From a virus (Duplodnaviria; Heunggongvirae; Uroviricota; Caudoviricetes), in IMG/VR virus record IMGVR_UViG_2778261537_000015, positions 1 to 20,528 of that record: a stretch of DNA of 20,528 nucleotides. The stretch is one strand, 5' to 3'. Of this stretch, positions 6,001-12,000 are shown in pieces (the first letter of the stretch is position 1; each line of letters begins with the position of its first letter). The position numbers were made by a program.

Positions 6001-9000
6001 CAATTTCAGCGTTTCAGTGTAATGCGGTGCTTACAGTTCCGGCTCTCGGCGCGAAATGGAATTTTGTGAACGGGGTTCTTTATACATGGACTCCAACCCC
6101 TCCGGGTCGGCGCGTACTGCAACCACGCCCGGCAGTATTTCACTTTGAGTCTGTAACACGGAGCACTATCTGATGGCACGTAAAGAAATCCCCTTTATCG
6201 TGGAAGACGATAATCGCGACAATGGGAAAGAGTTCATTATCACAGAGATGTCGGCATGGGATGCCGACGAACTGGCACAGGATTTATTCCGCTCCATGGG
6301 GGAATCGGGATTCTCTGGTATTCCTGCTGATGTGATTGCCATGGGGTGTGCTGGCCTTGCCACCCTTGGTCTGAATGTTCTTTCTGCCGCATCGCCGGAA
6401 GTCGCCAGAAAACTTCGTGATCGCCTGATGTCAACTGTGCAAATTGTGATTACACACGAAGGCAGCAGACAGGTGCGAACCGTGAAGCCTGTCGACTTTG
6501 AAGAGCTATCAACCATTCGTCAGGTAATGGATAAGGTATTTAAAGTCAATTTTGATTTTTTAACGATCGCCGGAGAGTGAAGTACCCGTTCATGGAGGAG
6601 GAGACTCTTCCGGCAAAACTCGTTAGCCCCGTAAACGTCACACCATCAATGAACGCCATTATCTGTTCAGGAAAAGCCACTTATACCGATTTGCAGGAAA
6701 GGTTATCTGTTCGTGATATGTATAACCTTCTGGAAATTATCTCGGTGGAATCATTTAACAAGCGGGTCTGGAATAAACATCAGGAGCAGCGATGATTATC
6801 AATGAGTTGGCCTACAAGGTCACAATTAAGGCCGATGAATTCCTGAATGGAAAACGGAAAGTAAAGCAGGAAGCACAAGACCTTAAAAACGAAATAGAGA
6901 GATCTTCATCTGCGATAGAAAGGTCAACAACCTCCTCGATGTCCAAAACGGCTAAGGAGACCGACAAAGCTGCTGTTGCAATGAAAGGGTTGACTGCTTC
7001 ATTTAATGGTTTTTTGGGGCTTTCGACACGCTTTGTGGCTGTTGGCGGTGTGTTGACTGCCGTAGCCATTGGCATTCATCGTGCATTTGAAAGTACTTCG
7101 GAGTCAATTGTAAGAGCCAGTAATATGGGGAGAATGCTTGGAACAAGCGCCAGTAACGTTCTTGGTACTCAGTATGGATTCTCCCGAATTGGTCAGAACG
7201 GCGGCGCGTTCCTTGGGGCACAGATGAGCGCCAGGATGGCGCTTGCCAATATAGAAGACCCAACAATTTTCGGCGGACTTACACCGGAGGCTCAGAATTT
7301 ACTAACAACTGGAGCTAGAACAGGCATTGATATTAGTAAGCTTGGAGGTAAATCAGAAGATGCTCTGGCGGAATTTCAGAAATATGGGAAGAACCATAAC
7401 GAGAAACAGTTAATGCAAGTGCTTTCTGCTTTTGGTTATGACCCTAACCTTGCCGGGGATATTAAAAGCGGAAAAGCTGTGCAGATGGTATCTGAGGAAG
7501 AAAAACGATGGCAGATGACCAAAGAGCAGGAAGAAGCACAGCGTAATATTCTTGCTACGACTAAAGCCCTTGACTCGCAATTTGCTCAGGTTAAACAAGA
7601 ATTAATGGCTACATTTGGCCCTGAAGTGCTTAAAGCAGAACAGGAGTTTTTAGAGTGGCTGAAAAACAACAAGGGTGACATTGTTGGGTTCTTCAGGAAC
7701 CTGAGTACAGGTATTGATGGTTTTGTTAAAGCCGTTGGTGGCGCTGGAAACGCATTGGGCATTCTTGCTGCCATGGCTCTTCTTAGCGGCAAGGGGTTAG
7801 GAAGCAAGCTGGGATTAATCGGTGCTGTTGGTATTTTTGGGCAGATGGTACAAGACCAGTATAAAGATGTTCCTGATGAGATGCGGCCATTCGCATTTCA
7901 GCAGCATTGGCTTGAAAGGCTCATTGGGCTGGATTATGACGATCCAAATAAAGAGATTCCTCCTAACAAAAATGGTGTCAACAGGCCTGACAGAAACAAT
8001 AACCCATTAAATCTTAAAGCTACTGGAAACAGAAGAAGAGACAAAGACGGATTTGCTCAATACTTCGACCCAGAAGAGGGTTGGGAGGCCGCCAGGAATC
8101 AACTGACTCTATACTACAAAAGAGATAAGCTTGATACATTGCAAGGAATAATAAGCAAGTGGGCACCATCCTCAGAAAACAACACAAAGGCGTATATTGA
8201 CCAGGTTTCTAAGTCTATGGGCGTTGGTGCCAATGATAAGCTAAACCTCTCAGATCCAGAGGTTATGGCAAAACTTAGCGCCTATATGGCTAGGCATGAA
8301 GGTTATCCAGATTGGAAGCGGGGTCTTGATTATGGTAACCCAACGAAAAATAGCAATGCCGCTTACTACCAAACTCAGCAAAGATTGGCTAATGGATCTG
8401 CAAATCAATCCTATGCCCAAAGCGTTGTTAACAATTACAACAGCCAGCACATAGGAGAGGTAAAGGTAATTGCCAAAACGGATCAATCCTCAAAACTAAC
8501 CGAAGGATTTAAGGAGTTGAATCGCAGATCATCAGTAAATCAGGCATTTTCAAGTGCAGTGCCTTAGCAGATTTGCTATTGACTAATTTCCCGCATGAAT
8601 GCAATTGTTTTTGCCATTTTCTCAGAGTGATCAATTGTCTCAACGAGAAATTTTCGCGCGGGAGATTGCTCATTCTCGCCTCGGAATGTGGCGTTAATGT
8701 TTTGCATTGCTGCATTTTTCCACATGCTTACTTCTTCTATGGATTGCGATAATGATGCTGAAGATGCAGCGTCAAAGCATATACTATACGATGAATCTCG
8801 TATATCTGACGGCGACTTGCCAATAGCACTAAGTTGATTTCCATACTTTTTTACCATGTCGTTAGCCATATCCTGACAAACTTCATCAATGCTTTTGCCC
8901 ATGCCTGCAACATAAGGAGAAGCATCTTTTATTAAAGACATCATTTTTTCCTTATCTTTGTCGGATGCAGCATAAGCTGCGAGTGATAGAAGAACGGAAG

Positions 9001-12000
9001 AAAATATTGCTATTGTGAAAAATCTGGATTTCATTCTTTCCCCTTGTAAATTTTCCTCTGTTTGTATCCGTTAACTGAAGCAAAAGCACGCAACAGTTAG
9101 TTTTGCGCAGGATACCAGATGATAATGTGTAGTTGGAGTAGCGCGGTTTTAATGCAAGCATTTTGTTTTTGTTTTATGCTTGCTTGTATGTGTGTGCAGT
9201 GCATATAATGCAAGCATAGATCACAACAAAGGTGCTTGCATTATGACTGAAAAGAAAAGTGGTGAAGGGAAAGCTAAGGGCGGGATCGCTCGCGCAAAGT
9301 CGCTGACTAAAGAGCAGCGTTCTGAAATAGCAAAGAAAGCAGCGGCTGCAAGATGGAAAAGTAAGATTCTCAGAGCAACTCATCGTGGTAACTTTTTAGA
9401 TGATTTTGGCATTGATGCTGAATGTTATGTACTGGATGACGAGTCGAAAACTGTCGTTGTTACGAAAACTGGATTATCTCAGCTGCTAGGGATTGGTGAA
9501 CATGCCAGGGATTTAGATCAACTGCTTGGCGCTCAGTATATGAGCAAATACCGAGATCTAGAATTGCAGCGAAAAATGGAAAATCCCTATAAATTTCAAC
9601 TTACTTCGAAGTCTAAAACCGTTCATCAAGCATTAGGTTATGACATTACAGCAATTGTTGATATTGGTAGGGCACTAATAGAAGCCAAAGATAATGACGA
9701 TCTACCACAATCACGGTTAAAGGCCGCGGCTGCAGCGCAGAGACTTATTAATGCCTCCGCTAAGGCGGGAATTAAGGGGGTTGCGTATGCGCTTGCTGGT
9801 TATCGTCCAGAAGTTCAGGCTGTCATTGACGAGTTCAAAGCGTTTGTTCGTGAAGAGGCTCGTCAATATGAAAAGGAATTTCCAGATGAGCTATACGAGG
9901 AGTGGTATCGACTGTACGGCCTGAACAGGCCAGAGAAAGGACGGCCTATTCGTTTTGGGCAGCTAACCAACATGCAGATATACACCCCGCTAGCAAAGAG
10001 TAAAGGTAAAATCCTTGAACAGATTCGAGCTAGCCGAGACGAGAACGGAAAACAATCTGATAAGTTGCACCTGTTCCTTTCTGAAATTGGTGTCAAGGCT
10101 TTGCGTCAGCATATCGGTAAGCTTCTTGGTGTCGCAGCGATGAGTGAGACAAGAGAAGAATACGAAAAAGGAATAGAAAAGGTTTTTGGAAGAATGAAAC
10201 CAGAAATCTAATTATGAAACCCACCGTCAGGTGGGTTTTTTGTTTAGCAGTTCTCTCAACTTTTCGTTCTGTTCTCTGAATTTTTCCTGTATTTCTTTTT
10301 GCATGGCGATCACTTGGGCTTGAAGTTGAACTAGCGCATCAACATTTAGCGGAACCGAGACGCTGTTGATTTTGTCTGCTATTTCCCCAAGAGTATTTTC
10401 TGCATTCAAGGCATCTTCCAGTATCTGCACAATCTCTGAGTTCATAGAGCGCCCGTTTCGTTTGGCTCGTTCAGCTATAGCATCTCGCATTCCGTCAGGA
10501 AAACGGAGGTTGAACTTGTCGTAGTCTTTTACTTGTTTTTCGGCCATTGCAAATCTCTCAAAAAAAATCATGGTGCCATATTGCCATACGATTTCAATGG
10601 TGGCATTATGGCCTTCATGGCGTCACTTTGGCACCAAATAAAGGAGATTAGATAATGCAAGATACACTTTTCACTGAGCGCAAAAATATCAAACTCAACC
10701 TTCGCCTTCCATCACGGCTGAATGAAGACCTTCGCCGCCTGGCGGAAATGGACTGTATATCTCTGAACTCTGCAATTGTTCGTTTGCTGGCAAAAGGTGT
10801 TAGGGAAGAGGTGGCGAATGGTCGCTAAAAACAGCGAAGCCCCAATGGCTGCAACCATTGAGGCTTCTAAATTACCAGTTAACCACGAGAAAACTGATAT
10901 GACTAGTTTAGCAATTGCAGATCGCACAATCAATGTTCCATTCCACGGAACAAATCTCTTTTTGGTCAGCATTAACAATGAACCTTACGTTCCTATGAAA
11001 CCCGTTGTAGAAGGCATGGGTATGGTTTGGGCTGCTCAATTTGTTAAGTTAAAACAGAGGTTTGCCAAAGGTATTTCGGAAATCGAAATACCTTCTGCTG
11101 GCGGTAAACAGTTAATGACATGTCTTGCCTTTCGTAAATTTGCGGCTTGGCTTTCAAGTATTCAACCAAACAAAGTCCGTCCTGAAATCCGCGACAAGGT
11201 AATCCAGTATCAGGAAGAGTGTGACGATGTGCTCTACGAGTACTGGACTAAAGGCCATGTGGTTAACCCACGCAAAGCTAAAAAGGCGTTGCCGGGCAAA
11301 ATCACCACTGAACAGCAGGAAGCCATTAAACAACTCGTCATGAGTCGCGGTCAGTCTCTGCCAAAAGAAAAACAGGCTAAGGCGATGATCACCATGTGGT
11401 CGTCACTGAAATCCCATTTTGGATGTTCGTACAAAGAAATCAGTGAGGAGCAGTTTACCGAAGCACTGTCACTTGCTGCTCGTATTCCGCTTGAAGGCGA
11501 ATTCATCGGCAAGTCGAAACATAATGAGATGAGTTGTTTTGATTGGAGGATGAATGTTCATAACCTGAACTCGGCGTGCATTCATCTTGATGCCATGTAC
11601 AGAATATGGAGAGACGAAATGGAACCCGCTTTGCGATTGCTTGGCTCTCCGGTTGCGACCAGATTTTGCGGAAGAATTGCAGATTGCTATTCCGTAACTG
11701 CAAGCGTTAAGAAAAGTCTGGAGGATGCCGCAGGGCTGAAAGGCTTACAACCATTTTAACTACCTGCACGAAAAGTGCAGGTCAAGAACAAACGCAACGA
11801 CCCAGCTTCGGCTGGGTTTTTGTTTAATGGAGAGTAGATGGGCATAATCGATTTAAACACAGCAGACATATTCAATGCTATCGGTGGTGGCTCTCCGCTT
11901 TCGATTATCGACAGCGTTCTGCATCCTCAGTATGTGATTCGTGACAGGGAAACTGGCGAGGTTGCTCTTGAGTTCAGCGGTATGGCATCCGTACAGCCAA

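What the first reader, a model, noticed from the sequence alone, without database searches (positions are those of the whole stretch)
8576..9034. Secreted 152-aa accessory protein encoded antisense to the tail operon
It has a clear Sec signal peptide with no lipobox, two cysteines and a helical mature domain, its own RBS and promoter region, and is A+T-rich relative to the tail genes. Periplasmic proteins encoded in prophage accessory positions are often superinfection-exclusion, immunity or host-interaction factors. I do not recognise the family.
Basis: partly seen in the sequence, partly recalled or inferred. Interest (0 to 1): 0.4.

Follow-up and report, generated by a model that had tools for sequence, protein, structure and literature searches.

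The report
Secreted prophage cargo beside tape-measure gene
This is a real, rare gene for a small protein exported to the bacterial periplasm; it sits in a swap-in slot of a prophage, right behind the tail gene that punches through the cell wall, probably helps block entry of other phages, but its function is untested.

Summary
ORF 8576-9034 (-) encodes a 152-aa protein with a conserved Sec-type signal peptide, no lipobox, two invariant cysteines and a confidently modelled all-helical mature domain. It is under purifying selection. The family is tiny (9 clusters among 1.84 billion representatives; Enterobacterales only). It has no Pfam, PHROG, PADLOC, PDB or BFVD relative.

New findings:
1. 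The gene always abuts, convergently, the stop codon of the ~600-aa tape-measure gene of lambdoid, Gofduovirus-like myovirus prophages. That tape measure carries a muralytic domain, either PHA02564/Enc34-endolysin-like or SLT.
2. The position is a cargo hotspot. Of 64 distinct loci, 40 carry a gene there, from at least 8 unrelated families, and 39 of 40 start with a signal peptide.
3. Unrelated cargoes share one ~60-nt upstream platform: TTGC-N6-TTGC, N13, TAGAAT, leader, AAGGA, ATG. This has the geometry of lambda CII / P22 C1-activated promoters.
4. In the window the slot also carries the P22 sieA leader and lies next to an mnt/arc/ant-like module, as sieA does.

Best reading: a moron encoding a periplasmic factor that interferes with phage genome entry. 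This is inferred, not shown. The window's copy lies in a deleted prophage remnant without cII and has a weakened -10.

The parts
8576..9034 (-). ORF for the 152-aa secreted protein ('family A'); stop codon at 8576-8578
   Evidence: conserved in 29 clusters at 44-99% identity and under purifying selection
8969..9034 (-). Signal-peptide coding segment (residues 1-22; predicted cleavage AYA|AS)
   Evidence: -1/-3 rule kept in 24/24 homologues; pLDDT below 50 for residues 1-19
8579..8968 (-). Mature domain: 130 aa, 14.3 kDa, pI 5.2, six helices, invariant C53 and C86
9040..9045 (-). Shine-Dalgarno AAGGGG
   Evidence: the AAGG column is among the most conserved of the platform
9061..9093 (-). CII-box-type promoter-like element: TTGC(9093-9090)-GTGCTT-TTGC(9083-9080)-N13-TACAAA(9066-9061)
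   Evidence: Same geometry as the annotated P22 Pa23. The hexamer lacks the -7 T that relatives have (TAGAAT).
9097..9116 (-). GGTATCCTGCGCAAAACTAA, 19/20 identical to the leader just upstream of P22 sieA
   Evidence: searches compared by eye; the P22 annotation is
6792..8567 (+). Tape-measure / lytic tail protein (591 aa); its stop lies 8 nt from the ORF's stop, convergent
   Evidence: phrog_873, phrog_2013 'lytic tail protein', phrog_2276 TMP
7947..8336 (+). PHA02564 / Enc34-endolysin-like muralytic domain of the tape measure (about aa 386-515)
   Evidence: 7q47_A E=4.6e-11; 9vvp_L E=7e-14; PMC8943055 for enzymatic activity of the family
9243..10211 (+). P63C-domain gene, divergent from the ORF
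10227..10571 (-). Arc-family (Mnt-position) repressor gene
10655..11759 (+). Small ORF in the Arc position (RHH-like by eye; not scanned against any library), followed by the P22-type antirepressor. Together with 10227-10571 this forms an immI-like module.

Best explanation
The ORF is a genuine moron: a self-contained accessory gene inserted antisense into the late operon of a lambdoid, Gofduovirus-like myovirus prophage, directly behind the tape-measure gene.

Its product is made with a Sec signal peptide, cleaved after A22 and released into the periplasm as an acidic ~14-kDa helical bundle, probably with a C53-C86 disulfide.

It is transcribed from a dedicated platform (TTGC-N6-TTGC box, -10, short leader, SD) that has the geometry of CII/C1-activated promoters. 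In an intact phage it would therefore be switched on when the infected cell commits to lysogeny. In E. coli variants it may also be transcribed from a sieA-type upstream region.

In the periplasm it most likely interferes with genome delivery by incoming related phages. The most economical target is the tape-measure protein that is ejected into the periplasm with its muralytic domain. That would give superinfection exclusion and/or protection of the new lysogen from cell-wall damage.

Shown here: the gene is real; its export signals are conserved; the slot is a hotspot for exchangeable cargo genes; the upstream platform is shared across cargo families; and the tape measure carries a lysin domain. 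Inferred: periplasmic localisation, the disulfide, CII dependence, and the whole exclusion function.
For: Real, constrained gene.

Export signals conserved while the sequence drifts.

Confident helical model.

Invariable context: the gene is convergent with and abutting the TMP stop in E. coli, Citrobacter/Salmonella, Yersinia-type, Cronobacter and Enterobacter loci, down to 44% identity, including loci that have no immI module at all.

Hotspot: 40 of 64 distinct loci carry cargo, from at least 8 families that are unrelated by BLAST or hhalign, and 39 of 40 have signal-peptide-type N-termini.

Block exchange: a near-isogenic prophage (98% and 96% identical flanks) differs exactly from TMP codon ~28 to 1 nt before the cargo ATG.

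Shared platform: conservation peaks at the TTGC tetrads, the -10 and the SD. The platform is present in 28 of 40 cargo loci and 0 of 24 loci without slot cargo, Fisher p=6e-9.

CII geometry: identical to the annotated C1-activated P22 Pa23. The intact relative encodes a CII-family protein and has exact boxes at the pRE and paQ positions. The CII box is defined in PMC4651098, and PMC2629481 gives a precedent for CII boxes upstream of a conversion cassette.

sieA parallel: P22 sieA occupies the equivalent position and shares the leader, and SieA targets the ejection proteins encoded next to it (PMC10883804).

Lysin target: the TMP carries a PHA02564 muralytic domain (PMC8943055). T4 Spackle is a precedent for a periplasmic, disulfide-bonded helical inhibitor of a tail lysozyme (PMC7677548). 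The mature protein is acidic (pI 5.2) and the lysin domain basic (pI 9.1). Stand-alone family A was found only with PHA02564-type TMPs, 15 of 15 distinct loci.
Against: There is no functional or expression data of any kind.

Within PHA02564-type TMPs the lysin-domain subtype does not track the cargo family. L010's lysin is 93% identical to that of a locus with a different cargo, 90% to one with an empty slot, and 87% to one with family c1. There is therefore no covariation signal, and the A-with-PHA02564 association can be explained by physical linkage. The A domain also occurs, fused to domain B, next to SLT-type TMPs.

A CII-only promoter would give transient rather than maintained expression, which is atypical for a prophage exclusion gene.

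In this window the -10 reads TACAAA (no -7 T), the motif is not significant on its own (1 hit against 0.68 expected), and the prophage has lost cII, Q and its head genes.

One distant member (P0034) lacks the first Cys.
Confidence: 0.4

Rival explanations
1. Specific version of the main reading: the protein is a Spackle-like stoichiometric inhibitor of the PHA02564 muralytic domain carried by the tape measure. It would neutralise that lysin in the periplasm of cells committing to lysogeny, which are likely to have been infected by several phages at once. It would also block cell-wall penetration by later-arriving relatives. On this view domain B would be the counterpart for SLT-type tape measures, and A+B fusions would act against both.
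For: The TMP lysin domain is identified. Spackle is a precedent for a periplasmic helical inhibitor with a disulfide (PMC7677548). The charges are complementary. Family A alone is found with PHA02564 in 15/15 loci, B alone with SLT in 5/5, and A+B with SLT in 4/4. The TMP body and the cargo gene are exchanged as one block. The CII-type promoter fits timing at establishment of lysogeny.
Against: The lysin subtype does not co-vary with cargo family. Families c1 and A~+C share the same lysin types. There is no fold similarity to Spackle. The association is confounded by adjacency.
Confidence: 0.15
2. It is a lysogenic-conversion factor aimed at the host's own physiology or environment, such as a periplasmic stress, binding or colonisation factor. 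On this view it sits in the slot only because the slot is a permissive, promoter-equipped insertion site, and it has nothing to do with phage entry.
For: Cargo families in the slot are very diverse and unrelated, as expected for a general-purpose moron site. The hosts are enteric bacteria. There is no homology to any defence protein. Morons commonly carry host-benefit genes (PMC9928086, PMC3594210).
Against: A near-exclusive restriction of the cargo to exported proteins (39/40) next to the periplasm-acting tail protein points to an envelope and entry-related theme. The equivalent P22 slot holds an exclusion gene. The family never occurs outside this phage context.
Confidence: 0.25
3. The main role of the unit is RNA-level. 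On this view it is a CII-activated antisense transcript, like paQ or Pa23, that runs into the 3' end of the tape-measure gene and damps late tail-gene expression during lysogenisation. The encoded protein would be secondary.
For: The promoter geometry and antisense orientation match Pa23. No terminator was found between the cargo stop and the TMP gene. The convergent stops are 8 nt apart.
Against: The ORF is under purifying selection at the protein level with a conserved SD and signal peptide. Eight or more protein families are maintained there, all with export signals. An antisense function alone would not need any of that. Twenty-four of 64 loci lack the unit altogether.
Confidence: 0.08
4. 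In this particular window the gene is a silent passenger: intact in sequence but no longer expressed, because the prophage is a deletion remnant.
For: About 25.8 kb including cI, cII and Q is missing. The -10 hexamer is TACAAA. The generic promoter scan is negative.
Against: The ORF is 99% identical to copies in intact prophages and has no lesions. The sieA-type leader region upstream could supply transcription. CII from another resident or incoming lambdoid phage could act in trans. This rival concerns expression here, not what the family does.
Confidence: 0.12

Closest known systems
P22 SieA (superinfection exclusion A)
   Same: It occupies the same genomic position: a ~160-aa gene antisense to the late operon, with its stop next to the stop of the last DNA-delivery gene and followed by mnt/arc/ant. 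A 20-nt leader upstream is shared. SieA acts on the delivery proteins encoded next to it (PMC10883804).
   Different: SieA is a three-pass inner-membrane protein without a signal sequence (PMC10883804). The present protein has a cleavable signal peptide and a soluble helical domain. There is no sequence relationship. The phage is a myovirus with a tape measure, not a podovirus with ejection proteins.
T4 Spackle (gp61.3)
   Same: It is a phage-encoded, signal-peptide-exported, small, acidic, all-helical periplasmic protein with two cysteines. A tail-borne cell-wall hydrolase is present as a potential target (PMC7677548).
   Different: There is no sequence or detectable fold similarity. The mature domain is 130 aa rather than 75. 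The candidate target is a PHA02564 domain on a tape measure, not a T4-lysozyme-fold domain on a spike. The phage is temperate and the gene has a CII-type promoter, whereas Spackle is a lytic early gene. Inhibition is untested.
Phage P1 Sim (recalled from my own knowledge of the 1990 Maillou and Dreiseikelmann work; not read here)
   Same: It is a signal-peptide-processed periplasmic protein of a temperate myovirus that blocks entry after adsorption.
   Different: No tblastn match was found to any of 50,697 phage records. Whether P1 is in that collection was not checked. The genomic context is different.
HK97 gp15 and other tail-operon morons
   Same: They are accessory genes embedded in the tail module next to the tape-measure gene. 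gp15 blocks tape-measure-dependent DNA entry (cited in PMC3594210 and in the reference list of PMC10883804).
   Different: gp15 is, as I recall, an inner-membrane protein and is co-oriented with the tail genes. The present gene is antisense, exported, and sits on a conserved CII-box platform.
Lambda paQ / P22 Pa23 CII-activated antisense promoters
   Same: They have the TTGC-N6-TTGC-N13-hexamer geometry and face against the late operon (PMC4651098).
   Different: Those promoters make regulatory antisense RNAs. This one precedes a conserved SD and a protein-coding cargo. CII dependence is not shown here.

Membership tests
Sec (SPase I) secreted protein | Positively charged n-region, uncharged hydrophobic h-region of about 10-15 residues, and small residues at -3 and -1 | tested here: met
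   K2 and R4; F5-A19 uncharged; A20-Y-A22. The pattern is kept in 24/24 homologues. This was a rule-based check, not SignalP.
Bacterial lipoprotein | Lipobox L-[AS]-[GA]-C with Cys at +1 | tested here: not met
   There is no Cys before residue 53. Position +1 is A, V, I or G in all homologues.
P22 SieA family | Sequence homology to one of the SieA types | tested here: not met
   hhalign of A1 against P22 SieA gives probability 0.1%.
P22 SieA family | Integral inner-membrane protein with three TM segments and no signal sequence (PMC10883804) | tested here: not met
   There is one N-terminal hydrophobic segment with an AXA site, and the rest is modelled as a soluble helical bundle.
P22 SieA family | Gene antisense, immediately after the last DNA-delivery gene, beside mnt/arc/ant | tested here: met
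   the leader sequence is shared.
P22 SieA family | Blocks DNA injection of related phages | not testable with these tools
   Needs plating and potassium-efflux assays.
T4 Spackle family | Sequence or fold homology to Spackle | tested here: not met
T4 Spackle family | Periplasmic helical bundle stabilised by a disulfide | tested here: inconclusive
   The helical bundle and two invariant Cys are met. Cys-Cys distance could not be read because coordinates are not returned.
T4 Spackle family | Binds and inhibits the tail-borne lysozyme | not testable with these tools
It needs biochemistry or AF-Multimer.
Moron (independent accessory unit in a phage genome) | Present in some and absent or replaced in otherwise closely related genomes | tested here: met
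   Present in 1 of 5,426 E. coli genomes. L002 has 98%/96% identical flanks with a different cargo. 24 of 64 loci have no slot cargo.
Moron (independent accessory unit in a phage genome) | Own promoter and terminator | tested here: inconclusive
   A conserved promoter-like platform is present. A GCCCAC-N4-GTGGGC hairpin lies upstream in many relatives but not in the window. No downstream terminator was found.
Moron (independent accessory unit in a phage genome) | Nucleotide composition differs from the neighbours | tested here: met
   GC 39.0% versus 44.4% and 48.0%. The difference is modest.
Moron (independent accessory unit in a phage genome) | Expressed independently of the lytic programme | not testable with these tools
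   No transcriptome is available. The LF82 study does not contain this prophage type.
CII/C1-activated promoter | TTGC-N6-TTGC tetrads flanking the -35 position (PMC4651098) | tested here: met
   TTGCGTGCTTTTGC at 9080-9093. The tetrads are the most conserved columns over 34 distinct sequences.
CII/C1-activated promoter | Usable -10 hexamer 17 nt after the N6 | tested here: inconclusive
   The geometry is identical to P22 Pa23. Relatives have TAGAAT or TAAAAT, but the window has TACAAA without the -7 T.
CII/C1-activated promoter | Cognate CII encoded by the phage, with boxes at pRE and paQ | tested here: met
   Met in the intact relative H1: an annotated CII-family protein, and boxes inside the 5' end of cII and inside Q, both antisense. 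Not met in the window itself, where cII is deleted.
CII/C1-activated promoter | Transcription depends on CII | not testable with these tools
   Needs a reporter fusion with and without CII.

The most novel reading that the evidence does not exclude
A lineage of lambdoid myovirus prophages keeps a CII-switched expression socket directly behind its lysin-bearing tape-measure gene and plugs interchangeable periplasmic proteins into it. Family A would be a new, structurally unprecedented periplasmic inhibitor of the tape measure's PHA02564 muralytic domain, and domain B its counterpart for SLT-type tape measures. These would be made at the moment a cell commits to lysogeny, to stop cell-wall damage and further genome entry. 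That would be a temperate-phage analogue of T4 Spackle, with modular, exchangeable specificities.
Probability: 0.15. Interest if true: 0.75.

Novelty: new variant of a known kind. Interest (0 to 1): 0.5.

Why it matters
Known periplasmic exclusion proteins are few (T4 Spackle, P1 Sim), and none is known for temperate myoviruses that carry their cell-wall lysin on the tape measure.

The survey gives a concrete, testable system:
- one fixed promoter/RBS socket;
- at least eight unrelated exported cargo families;
- two alternative tape-measure lysin domains;
- natural fusions of two cargo domains.

If the cargoes are entry blockers or lysin inhibitors, they would be a compact natural library of phage-entry inhibitors. 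They would also be a new set of proteinaceous inhibitors of PHA02564 and SLT muralytic enzymes, which is relevant to endolysin therapeutics.

The CII-box arrangement would also extend the CII regulon beyond cI, int and anti-Q to an envelope-protection gene. If the cargoes are ordinary host-benefit morons instead, the finding is a well-documented hotspot and no more.

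Tried and rejected
- **Family libraries.** Pfam, PHROGs and PADLOC scans of the protein and of nine other slot proteins gave nothing usable.
- **Profile against PDB sequences.** Noise only.
- **Homology among slot families.** Families c1 and c2 align to family A only in the signal peptide, so I rejected the idea that all slot cargoes form one superfamily. My first single-linkage clustering had lumped them together. Inspecting the edges showed real modular homology only among A, A+B, A~+C and A~.
- **Cognate lysin pairing.** I tested whether the lysin-domain subtype co-varies with cargo family within PHA02564-type tape measures. It does not.
- **Species-representative genomes.** No relative was found.
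- **Deposited phages.** There was no match to the protein, and none to the full tape measure at E<=1e-20. Only distant Edwardsiella and Vibrio relatives appeared.
- **Promoter and terminator scan.** A generic sigma-70 and terminator scan around the ORF found nothing relevant.
- **Literature.** The accession numbers occur in no paper. The LF82 moron transcriptome does not include this prophage type.
- **Alternative start.** The 121-aa form starting at Met31/32, used by some annotations (P0003), was rejected. The upstream SD and the signal-peptide-like N-terminus are conserved in all homologues, and the internal Met lacks an SD in L010 and L011.

Full report
**1. The observation**

The ORF is at exactly the stated coordinates: 8576..9034, minus strand, ATG start, 152 aa. 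Its product begins MKSRFFTIAIFSSVLLSLAAYA|ASDKDK.

Twenty-nine protein clusters in a 5.8-billion-sequence database are homologous at 44-99% identity. All come from Enterobacterales (Escherichia, Enterobacter, Citrobacter, Salmonella, Yersinia, Cronobacter), and none has a name or a Pfam domain.

In a 24-sequence alignment the N-terminal 20-23 residues vary freely but keep the form of a Sec signal peptide. Position -1 is A or S in 24/24 and position -3 is A/S/V/T in 24/24, with 0-1 charged residues in the hydrophobic core. No sequence has a cysteine at +1. C53 and C86 are invariant.

AlphaFold2 on this alignment gives mean pLDDT 87 and pTM 0.78, with six helices. Residues 1-19 are unstructured at low confidence.

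Between four loci from different hosts, synonymous sites are saturated (pS 0.71-0.89). Non-synonymous divergence of the mature part is only 0.11-0.32, while the signal-peptide segment is at 0.33-0.47. This is a protein-coding gene under purifying selection.

Some pipelines call a 121-aa form from Met31/32 (cluster P0003, 209 contigs). The long form is correct. An AAGGA or GGGGA Shine-Dalgarno precedes ATG1 in all four loci examined, and the internal Met has no SD in two of them.

GC content is 39.0%, against 44.4% for the tape-measure gene and 48.0% for the upstream tail genes.

**2. No known relative**

- Pfam, PHROGs and PADLOC give nothing.
- A profile search of PDB sequences gives noise.
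- Foldseek against PDB and against predicted viral structures has no hit below E=0.5.
- tblastn against 50,697 deposited phage genomes finds nothing.
- None of 185,579 species-representative genomes encodes a relative.
- An exhaustive HMMER profile search of 1.84 billion cluster representatives finds nine clusters in all.

The family is real, narrow and undescribed.

**3. Context**

The closest complete genome is E. coli WS4437A-1, 98% identical over 8300-9400 and the only one of 5,426 complete E. coli genomes with the ORF.

It carries an intact ~45-kb prophage. The early region is lambdoid: CI-like repressor, Cro, a CII-family protein, a nin region and a Q antiterminator. The structural module has an E217/Pam3-type contractile tail. 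The nearest isolated phages are Edwardsiella phages Edno5 and GF-2 of genus Gofduovirus, with sheath proteins 73-75% identical.

In the window the gene order is:
- neck terminator, sheath (DUF3383), tube and chaperone genes;
- the 591-aa tape measure (6792-8567, +);
- the ORF (-);
- a P63C-domain gene (+);
- an Arc-family gene (-);
- a small ORF in the Arc position, RHH-like by eye but not scanned (+);
- a P22-type antirepressor (+);
- baseplate and fibre genes, then integrase IntS and tRNA-Arg(CCU).

That arrangement copies P22, where gene 16 (+) is followed by sieA (-), mnt (-), arc (+) and ant (+).

The 20 nt just upstream of the P22 sieA ribosome-binding site is GGTATCCTGCACAAAACTAA. It recurs at window 9097-9116 with one mismatch.

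The protein is nevertheless not a SieA. SieA is a three-pass inner-membrane protein without a signal sequence (PMC10883804), and a profile comparison gives no relationship.

**4. The gene belongs to the tape measure, not to immI**

In every homologue context retrieved, the gene is convergent with the ~600-aa tape-measure gene, and the two stop codons overlap or lie a few nucleotides apart. These contexts include Citrobacter/Salmonella loci, IMG/VR prophages at 62% and 53% identity, a 44% identical member, Cronobacter and Enterobacter. In three of these loci (L086, L087, L088) there is no immI module at all, and the gene sits essentially alone between the tape-measure gene and the next tail gene.

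A near-isogenic E. coli prophage (L002) is 98.4% identical to the window up to 6873, which is tape-measure codon ~28. It is 96.1% identical again from 9036, one base before the ORF's start codon. Nothing is alignable in between. The tape-measure body and the cargo gene were exchanged as a single block.

**5. The tape measure carries a cell-wall hydrolase**

[quoted passage not shown] That family, PHA02564, has been shown to be muralytic (PMC8943055). Read from the alignment, the Trp in 'WAP' and the Glu in 'RHE' are aligned and conserved.

In other members of the lineage the same position holds an SLT transglycosylase domain (PF01464). PHROG matches are annotated 'lytic tail protein' and 'tail injection transglycosylase'.

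**6. The slot is a hotspot for exported proteins**

I fetched 68 related tape-measure loci and examined what follows the stop codon.

Of 64 distinct loci, 40 have an antisense gene there. The cargoes fall into these groups:
- family A (this one);
- family B (157 aa);
- A+B fusions of 272-287 aa with a (PA)n linker. Their N-domain is ~30% identical to residues 53-115 here (E about 1e-10) and their C-domain is 38-53% identical to B;
- A-like domains alone, or fused to a third domain C;
- c1, c2, c5, c6 (a lipoprotein), c7, and one membrane protein.

Profile comparison confirms that c1 and c2 are unrelated to A beyond the signal peptide. Thirty-nine of the 40 cargoes begin with a signal-peptide-type sequence, by my heuristic. 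None matches PHROGs or PADLOC.

**7. A shared expression platform**

The ~60 nt before the start codon is conserved across the unrelated cargo families. In many loci it begins with a GCCCAC-N4-GTGGGC hairpin. It then reads TTGCGTGTTATTGC, 13 nt, TAGAAT, a leader of about 25 nt, AAGGA, 7 nt and ATG.

Over 34 distinct sequences, information content peaks at the two TTGC tetrads, the T-A and A-A(-T) positions of the hexamer, and AAGG.

TTGC-N6-TTGC flanking the -35 position is the binding site of lambda CII at pRE, pI and paQ (PMC4651098). The C1-activated antisense promoter Pa23 annotated in the P22 record reads TTGCgagcacTTGC-N13-TAGTAT, which is the same geometry.

The intact relative encodes a CII-family protein. 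Its only two exact TTGC-N6-TTGC sites in the early region lie antisense inside the 5' end of cII (TTGCGTTTGTTTGC) and inside Q. These are the canonical pRE and paQ places.

The box with a correctly spaced TA-hexamer is found on the cargo strand in 28 of 40 cargo loci and in none of the 24 loci without slot cargo (Fisher p=6e-9). The loci are not phylogenetically independent.

A precedent exists for CII boxes in front of a lysogenic-conversion cassette, namely gtrA of phage epsilon34 (PMC2629481).

In the window itself the motif alone is not significant, with 1 hit against 0.68 expected. Its hexamer is TACAAA, as in the other E. coli alleles.

**8. Mechanism**

Established here:
- the gene is real and constrained;
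- its export signals are conserved;
- it is tightly coupled to the 3' end of the tape-measure gene;
- the slot holds exchangeable, exported cargo;
- the cargo families share a CII-type platform;
- the neighbouring virion protein carries a muralytic domain.

Inferred:
- the protein is released into the periplasm, probably disulfide-bonded;
- it is produced when CII is high, and in E. coli variants perhaps also from the sieA-type region;
- it interferes with genome delivery by related phages.

SieA supplies the precedent for the position and for targeting the neighbouring gene's product (PMC10883804). Spackle supplies the precedent for a periplasmic helical inhibitor of a tail lysozyme (PMC7677548).

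The acidic mature protein (pI 5.2) and the basic lysin domain (pI 9.1) are compatible with the Spackle-like version. So is the finding that family A alone occurs only with PHA02564-type tape measures, in 15 of 15 distinct loci.

That association is confounded by adjacency. Within that type, the lysin subtype does not follow the cargo family. The A domain also occurs next to SLT-type tape measures in fusions.

I therefore put 0.40 on the general entry-interference reading, 0.15 on the specific lysin-inhibitor version, 0.25 on an unrelated host-benefit function, and less on a mainly antisense-RNA role.

**9. This particular copy**

The window's prophage is a remnant. Compared with the intact relative it jumps from the Ea22-like early gene to a point near the neck-terminator gene. 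About 25.8 kb is missing, including cI, cro, cII, Q, the lysis genes and all head genes.

The ORF is intact and 99% identical to copies in intact prophages. Whether it is still transcribed here is unknown.

**10. Verdict**

Its interpretation is supported as far as sequence can take it.

The gene is a new, structurally unassigned family. It lies in a previously undescribed cargo slot whose logic resembles the P22 sieA locus and T4 Spackle, but it is not a member of either family. Function remains to be tested.

Noticed in passing
window 1-3700 and 18127-20528: The prophage is a deletion remnant integrated at tRNA-Arg(CCU) (19446-19520) beside IntS. TorI/AlpA-like (1777-1977) and Ea22-like (2836-3555) early genes abut the neck-terminator gene at about 3641. 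Compared with the intact relative, about 25.8 kb is missing (cI, cro, cII, replication, Q, lysis, terminase, portal, capsid). The flanks are a CscB-like permease (1-1248) and a formate/nitrite-transporter-family gene (19596-20528).
   Followed up: yes
window 9150-9245: There are four copies of ATGCAAGCAT or its complement (near 9152, 9177, 9207 and 9235) in the divergent region between the ORF and the P63C gene. They overlap a perfect TATAAT at 9204-9209 and look like operator half-sites.
   Followed up: no
window 7850-8290 versus L016/L017: The muralytic domain of the tape measure is itself a recombination patch. It is 56-73% identical, inside a gene that is 99% identical upstream and 96-98% identical downstream.
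   Followed up: partly
L002 3705-5522; window 7947-8336: Homologous tape measures carry either an SLT transglycosylase domain or a PHA02564 (Enc34-endolysin-like) domain at the same position. This is an apparent domain replacement.
   Followed up: partly
L047, L053, L060, L063 (slot genes); P0035, P0036: Natural fusions exist. The A-type domain is joined by a (PA)n linker to the B domain (272-287 aa), or an A-like domain is joined to a third domain C (241-259 aa). All have signal peptides.
   Followed up: partly
L009 9465-9923; L010 9417-9878; L013 7461-7934: A cytoplasmic 152-157-aa protein ending in ...HPxxLVGCGC... is encoded just upstream of, and co-oriented with, the family-A gene in several hosts. 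In L009 and L010 it follows an Arc-like gene. Its identity is unknown.
   Followed up: no
L003 5661-6065; window 8952-9161: The annotated start of the HK620 hkcB-like gene lies inside the sieA-type leader (MLALQPRYSNYTLSSGILRKT is a translation of that leader), so it is probably over-extended. The same frame gives a spurious 69-aa ORF overlapping the start of the ORF in the window.
   Followed up: no
L005, L008, L012, L021, L038, L050, L086-L088 and others, about 65-90 nt upstream of the cargo ATG: A perfect GCCCAC-N4-GTGGGC hairpin is flanked by A-runs and T-runs, so it looks like a bidirectional terminator. It precedes the platform in many relatives but is absent from the window, where the sieA-type leader takes its place.
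   Followed up: partly
L001 22876-22919: A tandem array of the decamer TTGCAGGGCT (about five copies) lies in an intergenic region upstream of a GDSL esterase gene in the intact relative.
   Followed up: no
L091 6034-6249 (Edwardsiella phage Edno5): In the nearest isolated phage the slot holds a 71-aa protein with an N-terminal TM helix and a CxxC...CxxC motif, next to mnt/arc/ant.
   Followed up: no
P0003 (121 aa; 209 contigs): Many public annotations truncate this protein at Met32 and thereby remove the signal peptide.
   Followed up: yes
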